Part shown: positions 51,493 through 52,829 of the stretch, piece after piece
How positions within the stretch are numbered: position 1 is the first letter of the stretch
Layout of the letters: each line of letters begins with the position of its first letter
Assembly (NCBI GenBank): GCA_003599595.1
Contig: QZIP01000015.1
Span: 4,379 to 68,378, forward strand
Origin: Candidatus Parcubacteria bacterium
Lineage (GTDB): Bacteria; Patescibacteriota; Microgenomatia; Levybacterales; GWA1-39-11
Length of the DNA stretch: 64,000 bases
Direction of reading: 5' to 3'
Program-made: the position numbers and the translations under genes
The notes under the pieces: model-generated
Seen by the model: the letters and a program-made list of their open reading frames with translations, nothing else
Databases searched by the model: none
Told to the model about the DNA's origin: nothing

Positions 51493-51560
51493 GATAACGT
51501 GGTGTAGAACAGGGTTACTTCATATGGCGAAAACACCTTGTTCGCTTTGTTCCCGTTATC
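51493..51560 (+). ncRNA. Y RNA-like stem-bulge-stem element R1
   Basis: GATAACG-T-GG-TGTAGA...TTCGCTTTGTT-CC-CGTTATC with inner helix GAACAGGG/CCTTGTTC. Confidence 0.55.
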
Positions 51561-51564
51561 TTAT

Positions 51565-51637
51565 TTCGGCGTGGAGAAGTGGTTAACTCGTCAGCCTCAT
51601 AAGCTGAAGATCGCTGGTTCAAATCCAGCCGCCGAGA
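51565..51637 (+). tRNA. tRNA-Met or tRNA-Ile2 (anticodon CAU), elongator type
   Basis: Acceptor TTCGGCG/CGCCGAG. Anticodon arm TCAGC-CTCATAA-GCTGA. T arm GCTGG-TTCAAAT-CCAGC. Confidence 0.8.
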
Positions 51638-51639
51638 CT

Positions 51640-51710
51640 ACTTCCGTGGTGGAGATTACGAGTACATCACTGTTAATGATCCCAACTCGTAAACGTTTGT
51701 TCCCGGAAGT
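51640..51710 (+). ncRNA. Y RNA-like stem-bulge-stem element R2
   Basis: ACTTCCG-T-GG-TGGAGA...ACGTTTGTT-CC-CGGAAGT with inner helix TTACGAGT/ACTCGTAA. The apical hairpin ATCA-CTGTTAA-TGAT looks like an anticodon loop. Confidence 0.55.
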
Positions 51711-51713
51711 TAT

Positions 51714-51788
51714 CTGACTGTGGTGTAGCCTGGTCAACATACGTGCGTTGGAAGCACGGGAGCGCTGGTTCAAATCCAGCCAGTCAGA
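51714..51788 (+). tRNA. tRNA-Pro (anticodon UGG)
   Basis: Acceptor CTGACTG/CAGTCAG. Anticodon arm CGTGC-GTTGGAA-GCACG. T arm GCTGG-TTCAAAT-CCAGC. Confidence 0.85.
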
Positions 51789-51792
51789 CTTT

Positions 51793-52371
51793 ATGGCAAA
51801 CTTGTATCATAAGTTTCTGAATAAAAAGAATAATGCTGCTAAAGAGGGTATTGGATTTTATCTTACGTTTACAGAACTGTGTTCTTTGTTAGAAGAAGCC
51901 CAAATTTGTGAAGACGATTGGTCCAATACAGGGTATCATTTAGCTAGATACAACGATGTTGGGGACTACAAAATAGGTAATTGTAGATTTATTCCTTATC
52001 GAGATAATATTAGTGAAAAGAAGATTTCAGAAGCATCTATAAAGGCCGCAAAAATTAATATTAAAAAGGCACTTGTTTCTCTTACTGAAGATCAGAAGTT
52101 TGAAAGAAACAAAAAAGGAGGTAAAAAAGGAGGGGGAAGTAATAAGGTTACTGATAATGAATTGATTGCATTATATGAAAAAGTGTCCCAAATAGATTTT
52201 AACAAATGGGGATCTAAAGGGGTTGCTGCAAAGATTCTTGGTTGTAGTCATACCCAAATTGTCAGATTGTTGAAGAAATGGAAAAATTTAGGATTGATTG
52301 AAGAATATAAGAATAGAAAATTGGCCTGTTCGTCTAACGGTCAGGATAACTGGCTTTCATCCAGTAGATAG
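51793..52371 (+). CDS. HNH-like homing endonuclease with C-terminal HTH, inserted between tRNA genes
   Basis: GYHLARYNDVGDYKIGNCRFIPYRDN is HNH-like, and the C-terminal ILGCSHTQIVRLLKKW is HTH-like. The start is placed after tRNA-Pro. The 3' end runs 49 nt into tRNA-Glu. Confidence 0.5.
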   Translation: MANLYHKFLNKKNNAAKEGIGFYLTFTELCSLLEEAQICEDDWSNTGYHLARYNDVGDYKIGNCRFIPYRDNISEKKISEASIKAAKINIKKALVSLTEDQKFERNKKGGKKGGGSNKVTDNELIALYEKVSQIDFNKWGSKGVAAKILGCSHTQIVRLLKKWKNLGLIEEYKNRKLACSSNGQDNWLSSSR

Positions 52372-52394
52372 GGGTTCGATTCCCCTATGGGCTA
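52323..52394 (+). tRNA. tRNA-Glu (anticodon UUC)
   Basis: Anticodon arm ACTGG-CTTTCAT-CCAGT. T arm AGGGG-TTCGATT-CCCCT. The acceptor GGCCTGT/ATGGGCT has three G-U pairs. Confidence 0.65.
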
Positions 52395-52396
52395 AT

Positions 52397-52529
52397 AGCA
52401 GCGTGGCGTAGAGATCGGTTACTTCTCAATTGGTATGAGGCGATGTGGGTTCGAGTCCCACCTATAGAGAAATCTATAGTCTTCTAATGGTAGGATGCTA
52501 CGTTACTGGTTTCGCTTTTTCCCGTTGCT
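52397..52529 (+). ncRNA. Y RNA-like element R3 with permuted tRNA-like domain (YrlA-type)
   Basis: AGCAGCG-T-GG-CGTAGA...TTCGCTTTTT-CC-CGTTGCT with inner helix AGATCGG/CTGGTTT. Internally there is a T arm GTGGG-TTCGAGT-CCCAC, a closed acceptor CTATAGA-gaaa-TCTATAG, and a D-like arm. Confidence 0.6.
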
Positions 52530-52536
52530 TATTTGT

Positions 52537-52609
52537 GGGCTCGCATGATCCAAGGGGGCGAGGATGCCTTGCAAGCAACCTGTGAAGGGTTCAATTCCCT
52601 TCGGGTCCA
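52537..52609 (+). tRNA. tRNA-like, probable tRNA-Ala (anticodon UGC) with aberrant D arm
   Basis: Acceptor GGGCTCG/CGGGTCC with a G3:U70 pair. Anticodon loop CTTGCAA. T arm AAGGG-TTCAATT-CCCTT. The D stem pairs poorly. Confidence 0.45.
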
Positions 52610-52612
52610 CTG

Positions 52613-52752
52613 AGTGGTATGGCGTAGAGATGGGATACTTCATAGGAACCGCCAAAGTGTTGGTTCAAATCCAACCCTCCCGACTTATCGGGAGGTAGCC
52701 CAAAAGCAGAGGCAGCGGTAGCAAGACACCTATTTCGCTTTTTCCTACCACT
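52613..52752 (+). ncRNA. Y RNA-like element R4 with permuted tRNA-like domain (YrlA-type)
   Basis: AGTGGTA-T-GG-CGTAGA...TTCGCTTTTT-CC-TACCACT with inner helix AGATGGG/CCTATTT. Internally ACCGC...GTTGG-TTCAAAT-CCAAC, CCTCCCG-acttat-CGGGAGG, TA-GCC-caaaagcaga-GGC-A-GCGGT. Confidence 0.65.
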
Positions 52753-52759
52753 TTAATCT

Positions 52760-52829
52760 TGACTTGTGGCGTAGACAACAGTTACTTCACTTGTAATGAA
52801 AAGCCTGTTGTCGATTTGTTCCCAAGTCA
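52760..52829 (+). ncRNA. Y RNA-like stem-bulge-stem element R5
   Basis: TGACTTG-T-GG-CGTAGA...TCGATTTGTT-CC-CAAGTCA with inner helix ACAACAG/CTGTTGT. A T7 run follows. Confidence 0.55.

What the first reader, a model, noticed from the sequence alone, without database searches (positions are those of the whole stretch)
51493..52829. Five covarying stem-bulge-stem RNAs (Y RNA-like) interleaved with tRNAs, ending just upstream of a Ro60 gene
Seen: five elements share one layout, [7-nt arm]-T-GG-YGKAGA ... CG(C/A/T)TTTKT-CC-[complementary 7-nt arm].
- R1 51493-51560: GATAACG/CGTTATC
- R2 51640-51710: ACTTCCG/CGGAAGT
- R3 52397-52529: AGCAGCG/CGTTGCT
- R4 52613-52752: AGTGGTA/TACCACT
- R5 52760-52829: TGACTTG/CAAGTCA

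The outer helix has a different sequence in every copy but always stays complementary. So does a second, inner helix: GAACAGGG/CCTTGTTC, TTACGAGT/ACTCGTAA, AGATCGG/CTGGTTT, AGATGGG/CCTATTT and ACAACAG/CTGTTGT. These are compensatory changes.

Other parts are conserved in sequence: the single bulged T, the GG/CC pair, the asymmetric internal loop, and an unpaired (T/A)TACTTC after helix 2 in four of the five copies. The gaps to flanking tRNAs are only 2-7 nt, which suggests co-transcription and tRNA-style processing.

Apical hairpins in R2, R3 and R5 carry 7-nt loops that look like anticodon loops: CTGTTAA, ATTGGTA and CTTGTAA.

Inference: a terminal helix with a conserved bulge plus a variable apical module is the design of Ro60-binding Y RNAs. 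The array ends 40 nt before a Ro60/Rsr gene. I do not know of a described multi-copy array of mini Y-like RNAs embedded in a phage tRNA cluster. An alternative reading is that these are tRNA-derived decoys for tRNA-targeting host nucleases.
Basis: partly seen in the sequence, partly recalled or inferred. Interest (0 to 1): 0.9.

Follow-up and report, generated by a model that had tools for sequence, protein, structure and literature searches.

The report
Phage Y RNA array beside Ro60
Five small structured RNA genes packed among tRNA genes just upstream of a phage Ro60 gene are real members of the known bacterial/phage Y RNA family (the partner RNAs of Ro60), so this is a good new example of a known system, not a new kind of element.

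Summary
All five elements exist at the stated coordinates and share one architecture: a 7-bp terminal helix, a bulged U, GG/CC pairs, a conserved asymmetric internal loop, a second covarying helix, then UUACUUC.

A covariance model built only from sequences outside the window recovers exactly these five and nothing else in 64 kb. The same elements, 1-8 per locus, lie on the Ro60 strand within about 1.5 kb of the gene in 19 of 21 related phage loci. This includes cultured Caulobacter phage CcrColossus (8 copies).

R3 and R4 carry a full tRNA-like domain (V hairpin, T arm, closed acceptor stem, D arm), which is the YrlA layout. R1, R2 and R5 are short forms with only an anticodon-arm-like hairpin (YrlB/Yrl2-like). 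The 5' motif GG-Y-G-N-A-G is a relaxed form of the published Ro/Rsr-binding motif GNCGAAG.

Phage Y RNAs upstream of Ro60 are already published, for mycobacteriophages, CcrColossus and Thermus phage phiLo. The novelty is therefore limited to:
- the copy number
- the un-modelled short forms
- the tight interleaving with tRNAs
- a conserved 3' strand
- a Ro60 gene split by a homing-endonuclease-like ORF

Binding, processing and function are inferred, not shown.

The parts
51450..51490 (+). Possible acceptor-stem plus T-arm minihelix (CCUUGG...GCCAG-UUCGACU-CUGGC-A-CCGAGG). It sits directly upstream of R1, at the start of the tightly packed RNA block.
   Evidence: Read from the sequence. RNAfold pairs the outer arms, but its inner hairpin (GUUGAG/CUCUGG in the MFE) is not the T arm proposed here, and the fold is weak with z -1.3. 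No detector calls it. Its status is uncertain.
51493..51560 (+). R1, a short Y RNA (68 nt): outer helix GAUAACG/CGUUAUC, U, GG-UGUAG, helix AACAGGG/CCUUGUU, UUACUUC, small apical hairpin, CGCUUUGUU-CC.
   Evidence: Fold. Leave-window-out model: 68.9 bits, E 4e-17.
51565..51638 (+). tRNA-Met (CAU), no encoded CCA.
   Evidence: ARAGORN; Rfam tRNA 65 bits.
51640..51710 (+). R2, a short Y RNA (71 nt): outer helix ACUUCCG/CGGAAGU, GG-UGGAG. The apical hairpin has the anticodon-like loop CUGUUAA.
   Evidence: Fold. Model R3: 49.5 bits, E 1.5e-11. Loop.
51714..51789 (+). tRNA-Pro (UGG). Its first 15 nt (N7-U-GGUGUAG) follow the same pattern as the 5' end of the Y elements.
   Evidence: ARAGORN; Rfam 57.8 bits; sequence.
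51793..52371 (+). ORF of 192 aa inserted in the RNA block. Function unknown. Its 3' end overlaps tRNA-Glu.
   Evidence: ORF list. No Pfam hit. phrog_16521, unknown function, E 6e-10.
52322..52395 (+). tRNA-Glu (UUC).
   Evidence: ARAGORN; Rfam 58.5 bits.
52397..52529 (+). R3, a long YrlA-type Y RNA (133 nt): the Y stem plus a V hairpin (loop AUUGGUA), T arm GUGGG-UUCGAGU-CCCAC, closed 7-bp acceptor-like stem, and D-like arm.
   Evidence: Fold. Partial Rfam YrlA match: 16.6 bits. Leave-window-out model: 35.0 bits, E 2e-7. Alignment A5.
52537..52609 (+). Non-canonical tRNA-Ala(UGC)-like RNA: acceptor GGGCUCG/CGGGUCC with G3:U70 and A73, loop CUUGCAA, good T arm, aberrant D region.
   Evidence: Not called by ARAGORN. 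Weak tmRNA and mascRNA acceptor/T-arm hits. A 92% identical copy in huge phage LR756511 has compensatory acceptor-stem changes.
52613..52752 (+). R4, a long YrlA-type Y RNA (140 nt): T arm UUGG-UUCAAAU-CCAA, closed 8-bp acceptor-like stem, D-like arm.
   Evidence: Fold. Leave-window-out model: 41.2 bits, E 3e-9. Alignment A5.
52760..52829 (+). R5, a short Y RNA (70 nt), with apical anticodon-like loop CUUGUAA. It is followed by UUUUUUUAUUU.
   Evidence: Fold. Leave-window-out model: 71.6 bits, E 7e-18. Loop.
52869..53573 (+). Ro60/TROVE N-terminal fragment (234 aa), equivalent to residues 1-219 of crAss001 gp96.
   Evidence: 47% identity to crAss001 TROVE protein, E 6e-65. phrog_850 E 4e-13. 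The clade profile hits phiLo Ro60 at E 2e-44, and also human and Xenopus Ro60 and Rsr.
53573..54403 (+). Intervening ORF (276 aa) that splits the Ro60 gene. It is weakly HNH-endonuclease-like with an HTH. Its start and stop overlap the stop of the N fragment and the start of the C fragment.
   Evidence: ORFs. HTH_7, weak. phrog_559 HNH endonuclease, E 1e-4.
54400..55146 (+). Ro60/TROVE C-terminal fragment (248 aa, vWA domain), equivalent to residues 227-467 of crAss001 gp96.
   Evidence: 49% identity, E 1e-72. VWA_2 E 3e-8. phiLo Ro60 9KOP residues 300-476, E 3e-7.
55148..55981 (+). GIY-YIG homing endonuclease ORF immediately after the Ro60 C fragment.
   Evidence: Pfam GIY-YIG E 5e-10. phrog_314 E 1e-26.

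Best explanation
R1-R5 are phage-encoded Y RNAs, the non-coding partner RNAs of the Ro60 (TROVE) protein encoded immediately downstream.

**Anatomy.** Each has a Ro60-binding module and a variable effector module.
- The binding module is made by pairing its own 5' and 3' ends. It consists of a 7-bp helix, a bulged U, two G-C pairs, and a conserved asymmetric internal loop (5' Y-G-N-A-G, 3' C-G-N-U-U-U-G-U-U).
- In R3 and R4 the effector module is a complete tRNA-like domain (YrlA type).
- In R1, R2 and R5 it is a single anticodon-arm-like hairpin (YrlB / Yrn2 / Yrl2 type).

**Inferred steps.**
1. The five RNAs and the interleaved tRNAs are made as one precursor.
2. They are separated by the host tRNA-processing nucleases: RNase P at tRNA 5' ends, and RNase Z/E plus exonucleases at 3' ends.
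3. The differing outer-helix sequences keep neighbouring copies from mispairing or recombining.
4. The mature RNAs load onto phage Ro60, which here is presumably assembled from two polypeptides.
5. As in Deinococcus, Salmonella and Thermus phage phiLo, they gate the Ro60 cavity and tether Ro60 to other factors. Candidates are host PNPase or tRNA-binding enzymes. This would reshape structured-RNA or tRNA turnover during infection.

**What is shown and what is not.** Shown here: the structure, its covariation, family membership by sequence and structure, and strict linkage to Ro60. Not shown: transcription, processing, Ro60 binding and biological role.
For: - **Structure and covariation:**
- **Independent recovery:** a model with no window sequence recovers exactly the five elements.
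- **Linkage to Ro60:** 63 hits in 301 kb lie on the Ro60 strand and next to the gene, 1-8 per locus. There are none in the LR756511 tRNA cluster, which lacks Ro60.
- **Binding motif:** the GG/CC pair itself covaries, as GC/GC in both short L013 copies and AG/CU in L010 and L012. The family consensus U-GG-Y-G-N-A-G matches the Rsr-binding motif GNCGAAN0-1G. The invariant UAC matches the conserved YUAY (PMC4201824; 10.1101/312249).
- **YrlA layout of long forms:** V hairpin, T arm, closed acceptor stem and D arm.
- **Rfam YrlA** aligns full length to homologues at 33.6 bits (L011), 42.3 bits (CcrColossus) and 52.1 bits (Forza).
- **Cross-detection:** my long-form model hits the Forza YrlA-like RNA at 54.1 bits, E 1e-13.
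- **Partner protein:** it is a Ro60 homologue.
- **Precedents:** two Y RNAs upstream of Rsr are processed from one precursor in M. smegmatis (PMC4201824). phiLo Ro60 binds two upstream Yrl RNAs, and they form ternary complexes with host PNPase (PMC12135203).
- **Packing:** spacers of 1-14 nt between most adjacent elements, or between elements and tRNAs, recur in 16 of the 21 related loci, e.g. L005, L009, L013, L014, L015 and Forza. They are wider, 22-48 nt, in CcrColossus (apart from one 9-nt spacer) and in Bambus. The 3' trailers are U-rich.
Against: - No Rfam family reaches its gathering score on any of the five. The best is YrlA at 16.6 bits, partial, on R3, against a gathering score of 69.
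- The central CGAA of the canonical motif is CGUA or UGUA in four copies and UGGA in R2. In phiLo Yrl2, single changes in CGAA cost 3-4 fold in affinity (PMC12135203).
- The Ro60 gene is split by an inserted ORF, unlike all 21 relatives. A functional Ro60 is therefore assumed, not shown.
- No promoter or terminator was convincingly identified.
- No expression, end-mapping or binding data exist for this phage.
- The covariation alignments were fitted to the model's structure, which inflates the percentage paired.
Confidence: 0.82

Rival explanations
1. The elements are tRNA anticodon-arm mimics. They would act as decoys or sponges for host anticodon nucleases or tRNA-modifying enzymes. This could be independent of Ro60, or Ro60 could merely stabilise them.
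For: - The first hairpin after UUACUUC is anticodon-arm-like far more often than chance. 21 of 59 family members have a stem of at least 3 bp closing a 7-nt Y-U-NNN-R-N loop, against 2.4 expected. 12 of 59 have C-U-NNN-A-A, against 0.18 expected. No shuffle in 2000 reached either value.
- The triplet varies: GUU, UGU, UUU, CAU, GCU, GGA, UGG and others.
- ARAGORN and a GenBank annotation mistake the 5' halves of some long forms for tRNAs.
- The region also encodes tRNAs and a PTH2 peptidyl-tRNA hydrolase.
Against: - The most conserved parts are not the loops. They are the Ro-type internal loop and the UAC.
- The elements never occur away from a Ro60 gene.
- Loop triplets show no consistent match to the tRNAs encoded alongside.
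- About two thirds of members lack such a loop.
- U-turn 7-nt loops are also simply stable loops.
- The shuffle test ignores the relatedness of the copies.
Confidence: 0.1
2. The array is mainly a cis-acting leader of the Ro60 mRNA. Ro60 would bind the Y-like structures in its own 5' leader to autoregulate translation or transcript stability, and no free small RNAs would be produced.
For: - The last element ends 21-110 nt before the Ro60 start in most loci, and 39 nt before it in the window. It is always on the same strand.
- No clear terminator or promoter separates R5 from the ORF.
Against: - In crAss001 and Gordonia phage Forza the elements lie downstream of Ro60.
- In the window, three tRNAs, a tRNA-like RNA and a 192-aa ORF are interspersed, so processing into separate RNAs is expected.
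- Characterised bacterial and phage Y RNAs are free small RNAs (PMC4201824, PMC12135203).
Confidence: 0.05
3. The elements are decayed tRNA genes or tRNA-operon spacers and processing hairpins with no function of their own.
For: - They sit in a tRNA cluster.
- The 5' 15 nt follow the tRNA pattern (7-nt arm, U8, G10, Y11, A14, R15), as in the neighbouring tRNA-Pro.
- T and D arms are present in R3 and R4.
Against: - Compensatory changes maintain two non-tRNA helices and the closed acceptor-like stem across 47 aligned homologues.
- The non-tRNA internal loop is nearly invariant.
- The family is conserved across phages whose Ro60 proteins are only 38-51% identical.
- It is absent from tRNA clusters without Ro60.
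Confidence: 0.02

Closest known systems
YrlA (Y RNA-like A; Rfam RF02553; Chen et al. 2014, PMC4201824; crystal structure in bioRxiv 10.1101/312249)
   Same: - It is encoded beside Ro60/Rsr on the same strand.
- Its 5' and 3' ends pair into a stem carrying a GNCGAA-type motif.
- It has a conserved UA/YUAY after the inner helix.
- Its effector domain mimics tRNA, with a T arm, a closed acceptor-like stem and a D arm. R3 and R4 have all of these.
- The Rfam model aligns full length to close homologues.
- YrlA-like RNAs were already reported in phages, including CcrColossus (PMC12135203, citing Chen 2014).
   Different: - Scores are far below the Rfam gathering threshold (16.6-52 bits against 69).
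- The motif is relaxed to GG-Y-G-N-A-G.
- The 3' strand (CGN-UUGUU-CC) is also conserved, whereas only the 5' strand is recognisable in the Salmonella and Mycobacterium RNAs.
- The outer helix is a constant 7 bp followed by a U, like a tRNA acceptor stem plus U8.
- The V arm is a regular anticodon-arm-like hairpin followed by a 5-nt AGGUC-like linker.
Short Y RNAs without a tRNA domain: Salmonella/M. smegmatis YrlB, D. radiodurans Yrn2, Thermus phage phiLo Yrl1/Yrl2 (PMC4201824, PMC12135203)
   Same: - They are second or third Y RNAs encoded next to the tRNA-like one near Ro60.
- They have a stem, internal loop and stem with the CGAA-type motif and a small apical loop.
- In phiLo they lie upstream of the phage Ro60 gene and bind it in vitro.
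- In M. smegmatis they are cut from one precursor.
- R1, R2 and R5 fit this description.
   Different: - No covariance model or Rfam family exists for these short forms.
- Here they share the whole Ro-binding module and the UUACUUC with the long forms, so they look like long forms that lack the T, acceptor and D part.
- There are up to three per locus, or eight elements in all.
- Many have C-U-NNN-A-A loops.
Metazoan Y RNAs and nematode stem-bulge RNAs
   Same: - A terminal helix formed by the 5' and 3' ends, with a single bulged pyrimidine and a conserved Ro-binding sequence on the 5' strand (GGUCCGA).
- A variable internal or apical module.
- Several paralogues per genome.
- U-rich 3' tails.
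   Different: - They are RNA polymerase III genes.
- They have no tRNA-like domain.
- The motif sequence differs.
- They are not clustered with tRNAs or with the Ro60 gene.
tRNAs and other tRNA mimics (tmRNA tRNA-like domain, mascRNA)
   Same: - A 7-bp terminal helix followed by U.
- T and D arms in R3 and R4.
- Placement in a tRNA array at tRNA-like spacing.
- Probable use of tRNA-processing enzymes.
   Different: - There is no cloverleaf with open acceptor ends.
- No tRNA detector calls them.
- The acceptor-like stem is closed by a loop.
- The ends of the molecule lie in the Y stem.

Membership tests
Bacterial/phage Y RNA, YrlA type (RF02553) | Encoded within about 4 kb of a Ro60/Rsr gene, on the same strand. 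| tested here: met
   R5 ends 39 nt before the Ro60 ATG and all five are on the + strand. The gene is a Ro60 homologue. The same holds for all 63 family hits.
Bacterial/phage Y RNA, YrlA type (RF02553) | 5' and 3' ends pair, and the motif GNCGAAN0-1G lies near the 5' end (the Ro/Rsr contact site). | tested here: inconclusive
   - The ends pair in all five, with covariation.
- The motif is present in relaxed form. GGCGUAG and GGUGUAG differ from GNCGAAG at one or two positions, and GGUGGAG likewise.
- Family consensus is GG-Y-G-N-A-G, with exact GGCGAAG in some homologues.
- Whether the variant binds Ro60 is untested.
Bacterial/phage Y RNA, YrlA type (RF02553) | A tRNA-like effector domain: T arm, closed acceptor-like stem-loop and D arm, preceded by a conserved YUAY. 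| tested here: met
   - Met for R3 and R4.
- T-arm and acceptor-like stems covary.
- UAC is invariant.
- Not met for R1, R2 and R5, which have only the first hairpin.
Bacterial/phage Y RNA, YrlA type (RF02553) | Reaches the Rfam gathering score (69 bits). | tested here: not met
   - No YrlA hit at the gathering score in the window or in any of the 17 IMG/VR loci.
- R3 scores 16.6 bits, partial.
- Homologues score 19-52 bits.
Bacterial/phage Y RNA, YrlA type (RF02553) | Physically bound by the cognate Ro60/Rsr protein. | not testable with these tools
   This needs RIP, CLIP or EMSA. Precedent exists for phiLo Ro60 with Yrl1/Yrl2 (PMC12135203).
Short Y RNAs (YrlB / Yrn2 / Yrl2 type) | [quoted passage not shown] It is encoded beside a tRNA-like Y RNA and Ro60. 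| tested here: met
   R1, R2 and R5 fold this way. They share the module with R3 and R4. 28 homologous short forms were found. No formal family model exists to score against.
tRNA (RF00005) | A cloverleaf with open acceptor ends, recognised by tRNA detectors. | tested here: not met
   ARAGORN and Rfam tRNA call none of the five, even at E<=10. Detectors do miscall the 5' halves of some long homologues.
Ro60/TROVE protein (partner gene) | A HEAT-repeat TROVE ring plus a vWA domain in one polypeptide of about 470-540 aa. | tested here: inconclusive
   - Both halves are present and conserved: 47% and 49% identity to crAss001 gp96 residues 1-219 and 227-467.
- The clade profile matches solved Ro60 structures.
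- The gene is interrupted by a 276-aa ORF, unlike 21 of 21 relatives.
- Pfam TROVE is not hit and vWA_Ro60 is below its cut-off.

The most novel reading that the evidence does not exclude
This reading has two parts.

**Origin.** The phage Ro60-linked arrays would be a diversified set of tRNA-derived Y RNAs that still show how Y RNAs arose from tRNA operons.
- The 5' 75 nt of the long forms form a near-complete tRNA: a 7-nt acceptor strand, U8, G10, Y11, A14, R15, an anticodon arm with a C-U-NNN-A-A loop, a 5-nt variable loop, and a T arm.
- crAss001 carries the circularly permuted version: a tRNA-shaped RNA whose anticodon loop is replaced by the Ro-binding module.

**Function.** The varied anticodon-like hairpins would direct Ro60, or nucleases and repair enzymes tethered to it, to enzymes that recognise anticodon loops. 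Alternatively they would act as decoys for those enzymes, such as host anticodon nucleases. The array would then be a phage counter-defence or tRNA-surveillance device.
Probability: 0.12. Interest if true: 0.8.

Novelty: new member of a known kind. Interest (0 to 1): 0.42.

Why it matters
Ro60-Y RNA particles are conserved from bacteria to humans, yet their role in bacteria and phages is poorly understood.

This locus and its relatives show three things:
- A widespread clade of phage Ro60 genes comes with arrays of 1-8 Y RNAs. The clade includes crAss-like, Caulobacter, Brevundimonas and many uncultured phages.
- Current Rfam models and genome annotations miss these RNAs, or miscall them as tRNAs or terminators.
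- The arrays mix tRNA-like and short forms that share one well-defined Ro-binding module.

This yields ready-made covariance models. It also provides cultured systems for experiments, such as CcrColossus with Caulobacter and crAss001 with Bacteroides. The data add comparative support for the proposal that YrlA-type RNAs derive from dimeric tRNA transcripts.

It does not change the concept of what a Y RNA is.

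Tried and rejected
- **Rfam.** At gathering thresholds on the window and 17 related loci, Rfam found only tRNAs, one tmRNA-model match on a 73-nt tRNA-like sequence and one unrelated motif. E-value mode gave only sub-threshold YrlA matches.
- **GenBank phages, nucleotide search.** A search with the 1.7-kb region found no related locus, only tRNA matches and the tRNA-Ala-like RNA in LR756511. That 595-kb phage has no Y-like elements near its copy.
- **First two models on cultured phages.** They found nothing in crAss001 or RsoM2USA. 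The third model and reading by eye then found one short and two permuted elements downstream of the crAss001 TROVE gene. RsoM2USA remains negative.
- **Apical loops.** Automatic MFE extraction from truncated sub-sequences was too noisy. I replaced it with direct hairpin enumeration and shuffling.
- **Alternative pairing.** I considered GGYG pairing with CGCY, as in the Rfam YrlA structure. I rejected it in favour of GG/CC next to the outer arm, because only that pairing shows compensatory changes: L013 GC/GC, and L010 and L012 AG/CU.
- **Promoters and terminators.** The scan gave nothing above shuffled expectation.
- **Literature gaps.** The supplementary tables of Chen 2014, which list the phages, and the two Wolin-lab reviews are not held. 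The statement that CcrColossus was already reported therefore rests on the phiLo paper's citation.
- **Split Ro60.** I considered a group I intron or an intein. No intron model hit. The three ORFs have their own overlapping starts and stops, so a free-standing endonuclease gene insertion is more likely.
- **Neighbouring ORFs.** Pfam scans found no RtcB, PNPase or RNA ligase. They found only PTH2 and a metallophosphoesterase.

Full report
**1. The observation**

Reading 50800-53600 confirms five elements on the + strand at the stated coordinates:
- R1 51493-51560
- R2 51640-51710
- R3 52397-52529
- R4 52613-52752
- R5 52760-52829

Each begins with a 7-nt arm, then U, GG and YGKAGA. Each ends with CGNUUUKU, CC and the complement of the arm.

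RNAfold gives all five the same fold: outer helix, bulged U, GG/CC, asymmetric internal loop, inner helix. Z-scores are -2.3 to -3.4.

The nonamer TGGYGKAGA occurs 8 times in 64 kb against 1.7 expected, and no shuffle reaches 8. The three extra hits are inside ORFs without the rest of the structure.

ARAGORN and Rfam call tRNA-Met (51565-51638), tRNA-Pro (51714-51789) and tRNA-Glu (52322-52395) between the elements. They call none of the five as tRNA, even at E<=10.

Spacers are 1-7 nt. R5 ends 39 nt before an ATG preceded by AAGGAGG.

**2. The neighbouring gene**

- ORF 52869-53573 is 47% identical to residues 1-219 of the TROVE protein gp96 of Bacteroides phage crAss001.
- ORF 54400-55146 is 49% identical to residues 227-467 of gp96.
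- A profile of this phage protein clade matches solved Ro60 structures:

| Structure | E-value |
|---|---|
| Thermus phage phiLo Ro60 (9KOP) | 2e-44 |
| Human Ro60 (9NEN) | 5e-10 |
| Xenopus Ro60 (1YVP) | 3.5e-8 |
| D. radiodurans Rsr (2NVO) | 3e-6 |

The gene is therefore Ro60, but it is split. A 276-aa ORF, weakly HNH-endonuclease-like, lies between the halves. Its start overlaps the stop of the N fragment and its stop overlaps the start of the C fragment. A GIY-YIG endonuclease ORF follows.

All 21 related loci have an uninterrupted Ro60 ORF.

**3. Relatives**

The Ro60 N fragment retrieved 17 IMG/VR loci at 38-51% identity. GenBank phages with the same clade of Ro60 include crAss001, Caulobacter CcrColossus, Brevundimonas jumbo phages and Ralstonia RsoM2USA.

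- A motif-and-complementarity script already found look-alikes just upstream of Ro60 in several loci.
- A covariance model of the short forms found 28 matches.
- A model of the long forms found 19 full-length long forms.
- A third model, built only from 24 non-window sequences, recovered exactly the five window elements and nothing else in the window. Scores were 71.6, 68.9, 49.5, 41.2 and 35.0 bits.

With that third model, 63 matches at E<=0.01 were found in 301 kb.
- All are on the Ro60 strand.
- All lie within about 1.5 kb upstream of the gene. The exception is crAss001, where the element is 100 nt downstream.
- Copy number is 1-8 per locus. CcrColossus has eight.
- None occur in RsoM2USA, or in a 28-tRNA cluster of phage LR756511 that lacks Ro60.
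- Sizes are bimodal, 65-97 nt and 117-180 nt.

**4. Structure and covariation**

| Alignment | Cells paired | With slid partners | Pairs changed on both sides | Covariation score | Best control |
|---|---|---|---|---|---|
| Short forms | 88.9% | 45-53% | 18 of 20 | 0.62 | 0.15 |
| Long forms | 93.8% | 44-50% | 26 of 30 | 0.83 | 0.19 |

The helices that covary in the long forms include the T-arm and the closed acceptor-like stems.

The GG/CC pair next to the outer arm itself covaries: GC/GC in the two short L013 copies, and AG/CU in L010 and L012. These alignments were fitted to the models, so the percentage paired is somewhat inflated. However, the MAFFT/RNAalifold analysis of the raw sequences shows the same compensatory pattern.

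The family consensus is N7-U-GG-Y-G-N-A-G, helix, N-UAC-UUC..., helix, C-G-(C/A)-U-U-G-U-U-CC-N7. G12 and the U and C of UAC are invariant in 47 of 47 sequences. A14 is present in 45 of 47, G15 in 43 of 47, and the A of UAC in 44 of 47.

**5. What it is**

Chen et al. 2014 (PMC4201824) defined bacterial YrlA RNAs by four features:
- proximity to Rsr on the same strand
- a 5' GNCGAAN0-1G motif
- a conserved YUAY
- T and D arms flanking a closed acceptor-like stem

They reported such RNAs in 254 bacteria and 22 phages. They also showed that each characterised species has a second, shorter hairpin-type Y RNA, and that the M. smegmatis pair is cut from one precursor.

The window's elements fit this description:
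- GG-Y-G-N-A-G matches GNCGAAG apart from a relaxed fifth position and C/U.
- UUAC is the YUAY.
- R3 and R4, and the 17 other long forms, have a V hairpin, a GGUUCGAAUCC-type T arm, a 7-8 bp closed stem and a UAGCUCAGUUGGUAGAGC-type D arm.

The Rfam YrlA model aligns over its full length to homologues, but below its gathering score of 69:
- 33.6 bits in L011
- 42.3 bits in CcrColossus
- 52.1 bits in Gordonia phage Forza

On the window itself it gives only a 16.6-bit partial match in R3. Conversely, my long-form model hits the Forza RNA at 54.1 bits, E 1e-13.

R1, R2 and R5 share the entire Ro-binding module and the UUACUUC, but carry only the first hairpin. That corresponds to YrlB, Yrn2 and phiLo Yrl2. 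For phiLo, two Yrl RNAs upstream of the phage Ro60 bind it in vitro and form ternary complexes with host PNPase (PMC12135203). The same paper states that Chen et al. had already found Y-like RNAs in CcrColossus, Bacillus phage G and mycobacteriophages.

**6. How it probably works**

*Shown:* the structure, family membership and obligate linkage to Ro60.

*Inferred:*
- The RNA block from about 51450 to 52829 is one precursor, separated by tRNA-processing nucleases. It contains a minihelix, R1, tRNA-Met, R2, tRNA-Pro, an ORF, tRNA-Glu, R3, a tRNA-Ala-like RNA, R4 and R5.
- None of the tRNAs encodes CCA, spacers are A/U-rich, and 3' trailers across the family are U-rich.
- The same tight packing, with spacers of 1-14 nt between most neighbours, recurs in most related loci. 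Examples are L005, L009, L013, L014 and L015. Spacers are wider, 22-48 nt, in CcrColossus (apart from one 9-nt spacer) and in Bambus.
- In Forza a YrlA-like RNA lies 2 and 6 nt from flanking tRNAs.
- The mature RNAs then bind Ro60 through the internal-loop module and present different effector modules.
- The all-different outer helices plausibly prevent mispairing and recombination between neighbours.

The ultimate role is not addressed by any data here. Candidates are gating Ro60, tethering PNPase, or acting on tRNAs.

**7. The anticodon-like loops**

- 21 of 59 family members have a stem of at least 3 bp closing a 7-nt Y-U-NNN-R-N loop directly after UUACUUC, against 2.4 expected.
- 12 of 59 have C-U-NNN-A-A, against 0.18 expected.
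- No shuffle in 2000 reached either count.

In long forms this hairpin is followed by a 5-nt AGGUC-like linker and the T arm. The 5' end follows the tRNA pattern N7-U8-G-G10-Y11-N-N-A14-R15, as in the adjacent tRNA-Pro. As a result:
- ARAGORN miscalls the 5' halves of two long homologues as tRNA-Pro and tRNA-Gln.
- The CcrColossus record annotates one as tRNA-Gln.
- The Rfam tRNA model aligns one in the order anticodon arm, variable loop, T arm.

This fits the published idea that YrlA arose from dimeric tRNA transcripts (quoted in 10.1101/312249). It keeps the decoy or targeting hypothesis open. But the loops are much less conserved than the Ro module, triplets do not track the co-encoded tRNAs, and the copies are related, so the shuffle test overstates independence.

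**8. Novelty and verdict**

This is a genuine, well-supported set of phage Y RNAs: two YrlA-type and three short. The kind is known.

What is new is modest:
- a subfamily that Rfam and annotation miss
- conservation of the 3' strand of the Ro module
- un-modelled short forms
- five copies interleaved with tRNAs
- a Ro60 gene split by an endonuclease ORF

I rate it a new member of a known kind, with moderate interest.

Noticed in passing
L018 (Bacteroides phage crAss001, NC_049977.1) 5516-5599, 5693-5838 and about 5949-6091: The unannotated 900 nt downstream of the crAss001 TROVE gene holds three elements.
- One short Y-like element scores 35.7 bits.
- Two tRNA-shaped RNAs have an open acceptor stem, a D arm and a T arm. 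Their anticodon loop is replaced by the same Ro-type module: CUUUGUU-CAAUGUU-CC-hairpin-U-GG-UGUAGA-AAUAGAG-UUACUUC.
- These two are a circular permutation of the window's long forms. Rfam tRNA scores one at 46.6 bits over 144 nt.
   Followed up: partly
L019 (Caulobacter phage CcrColossus, NC_019406.1) 2761-3956; L021 (Brevundimonas phage Bambus) 3313-3956: CcrColossus has eight tandem Y-like elements in the 1.2 kb upstream of its TROVE gene. In the record some are annotated as rho-independent terminators or as tRNA-Gln. Bambus has four.
   Followed up: partly
window 52869-55981: The Ro60 gene is split into N (234 aa) and C (248 aa) ORFs by a 276-aa HNH-like ORF with overlapping stop and start codons. 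A GIY-YIG endonuclease ORF follows. All 21 related loci have an intact Ro60 ORF.
   Followed up: partly
window 52537-52609; L022 (LR756511.1) 6001-6083: This is a tRNA-Ala(UGC)-like RNA with G3:U70, A73, loop CUUGCAA and a normal T arm, but an aberrant D region. ARAGORN does not call it. A 92% identical copy sits in the tRNA array of a 595-kb uncultured phage, with compensatory changes at acceptor pairs 5-68 and 6-67.
   Followed up: partly
window 51450-51490: A 41-nt acceptor-stem plus T-arm minihelix (T arm GCCAG-UUCGACU-CUGGC) lies directly upstream of R1. It has no D or anticodon arm and no tool calls it.
   Followed up: no
L023 (Gordonia phage Forza, NC_070763.1) 3958-4087: An unannotated YrlA-like RNA lies inside a 30-tRNA array, 2 and 6 nt from tRNA-Gln and tRNA-Ile and 1.1 kb downstream of a Ro-like gene. 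Rfam scores it 52.1 bits and my long-form model 54.1 bits. In sister phages the same spot is annotated as tRNA-Leu.
   Followed up: partly
L002 2058-2134; L008 1157-1235: ARAGORN calls the 5' halves of two long Y RNAs as tRNA-Pro(UGG) and tRNA-Gln(CUG). It reads the V hairpin as the anticodon arm. This is a likely source of false tRNA annotations in phage genomes.
   Followed up: no
window 51793-52371: A 192-aa ORF of unknown function (phrog_16521) is inserted between tRNA-Pro and tRNA-Glu. Its last 50 nt overlap tRNA-Glu.
   Followed up: no
window 17782-18861, 19652-21010, 27660-28868, 33862-36857, 47259-47747, 49578-50249: The window comes from a large phage rich in auxiliary genes.
- a further GIY-YIG homing endonuclease
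- nicotinamide phosphoribosyltransferase
- a PurZ-like adenylosuccinate-synthetase homologue, which hints at 2-aminoadenine DNA
- ribonucleotide reductase subunits
- a PTH2 peptidyl-tRNA hydrolase
- a metallophosphoesterase
   Followed up: no
L011 5049-5121: A 73-nt sequence upstream of the Y RNA array scores 65 bits on the Rfam tmRNA model, with model ends 1-374. It is probably a tRNA-Ala-like acceptor/T-arm mimic and not a tmRNA.
   Followed up: no
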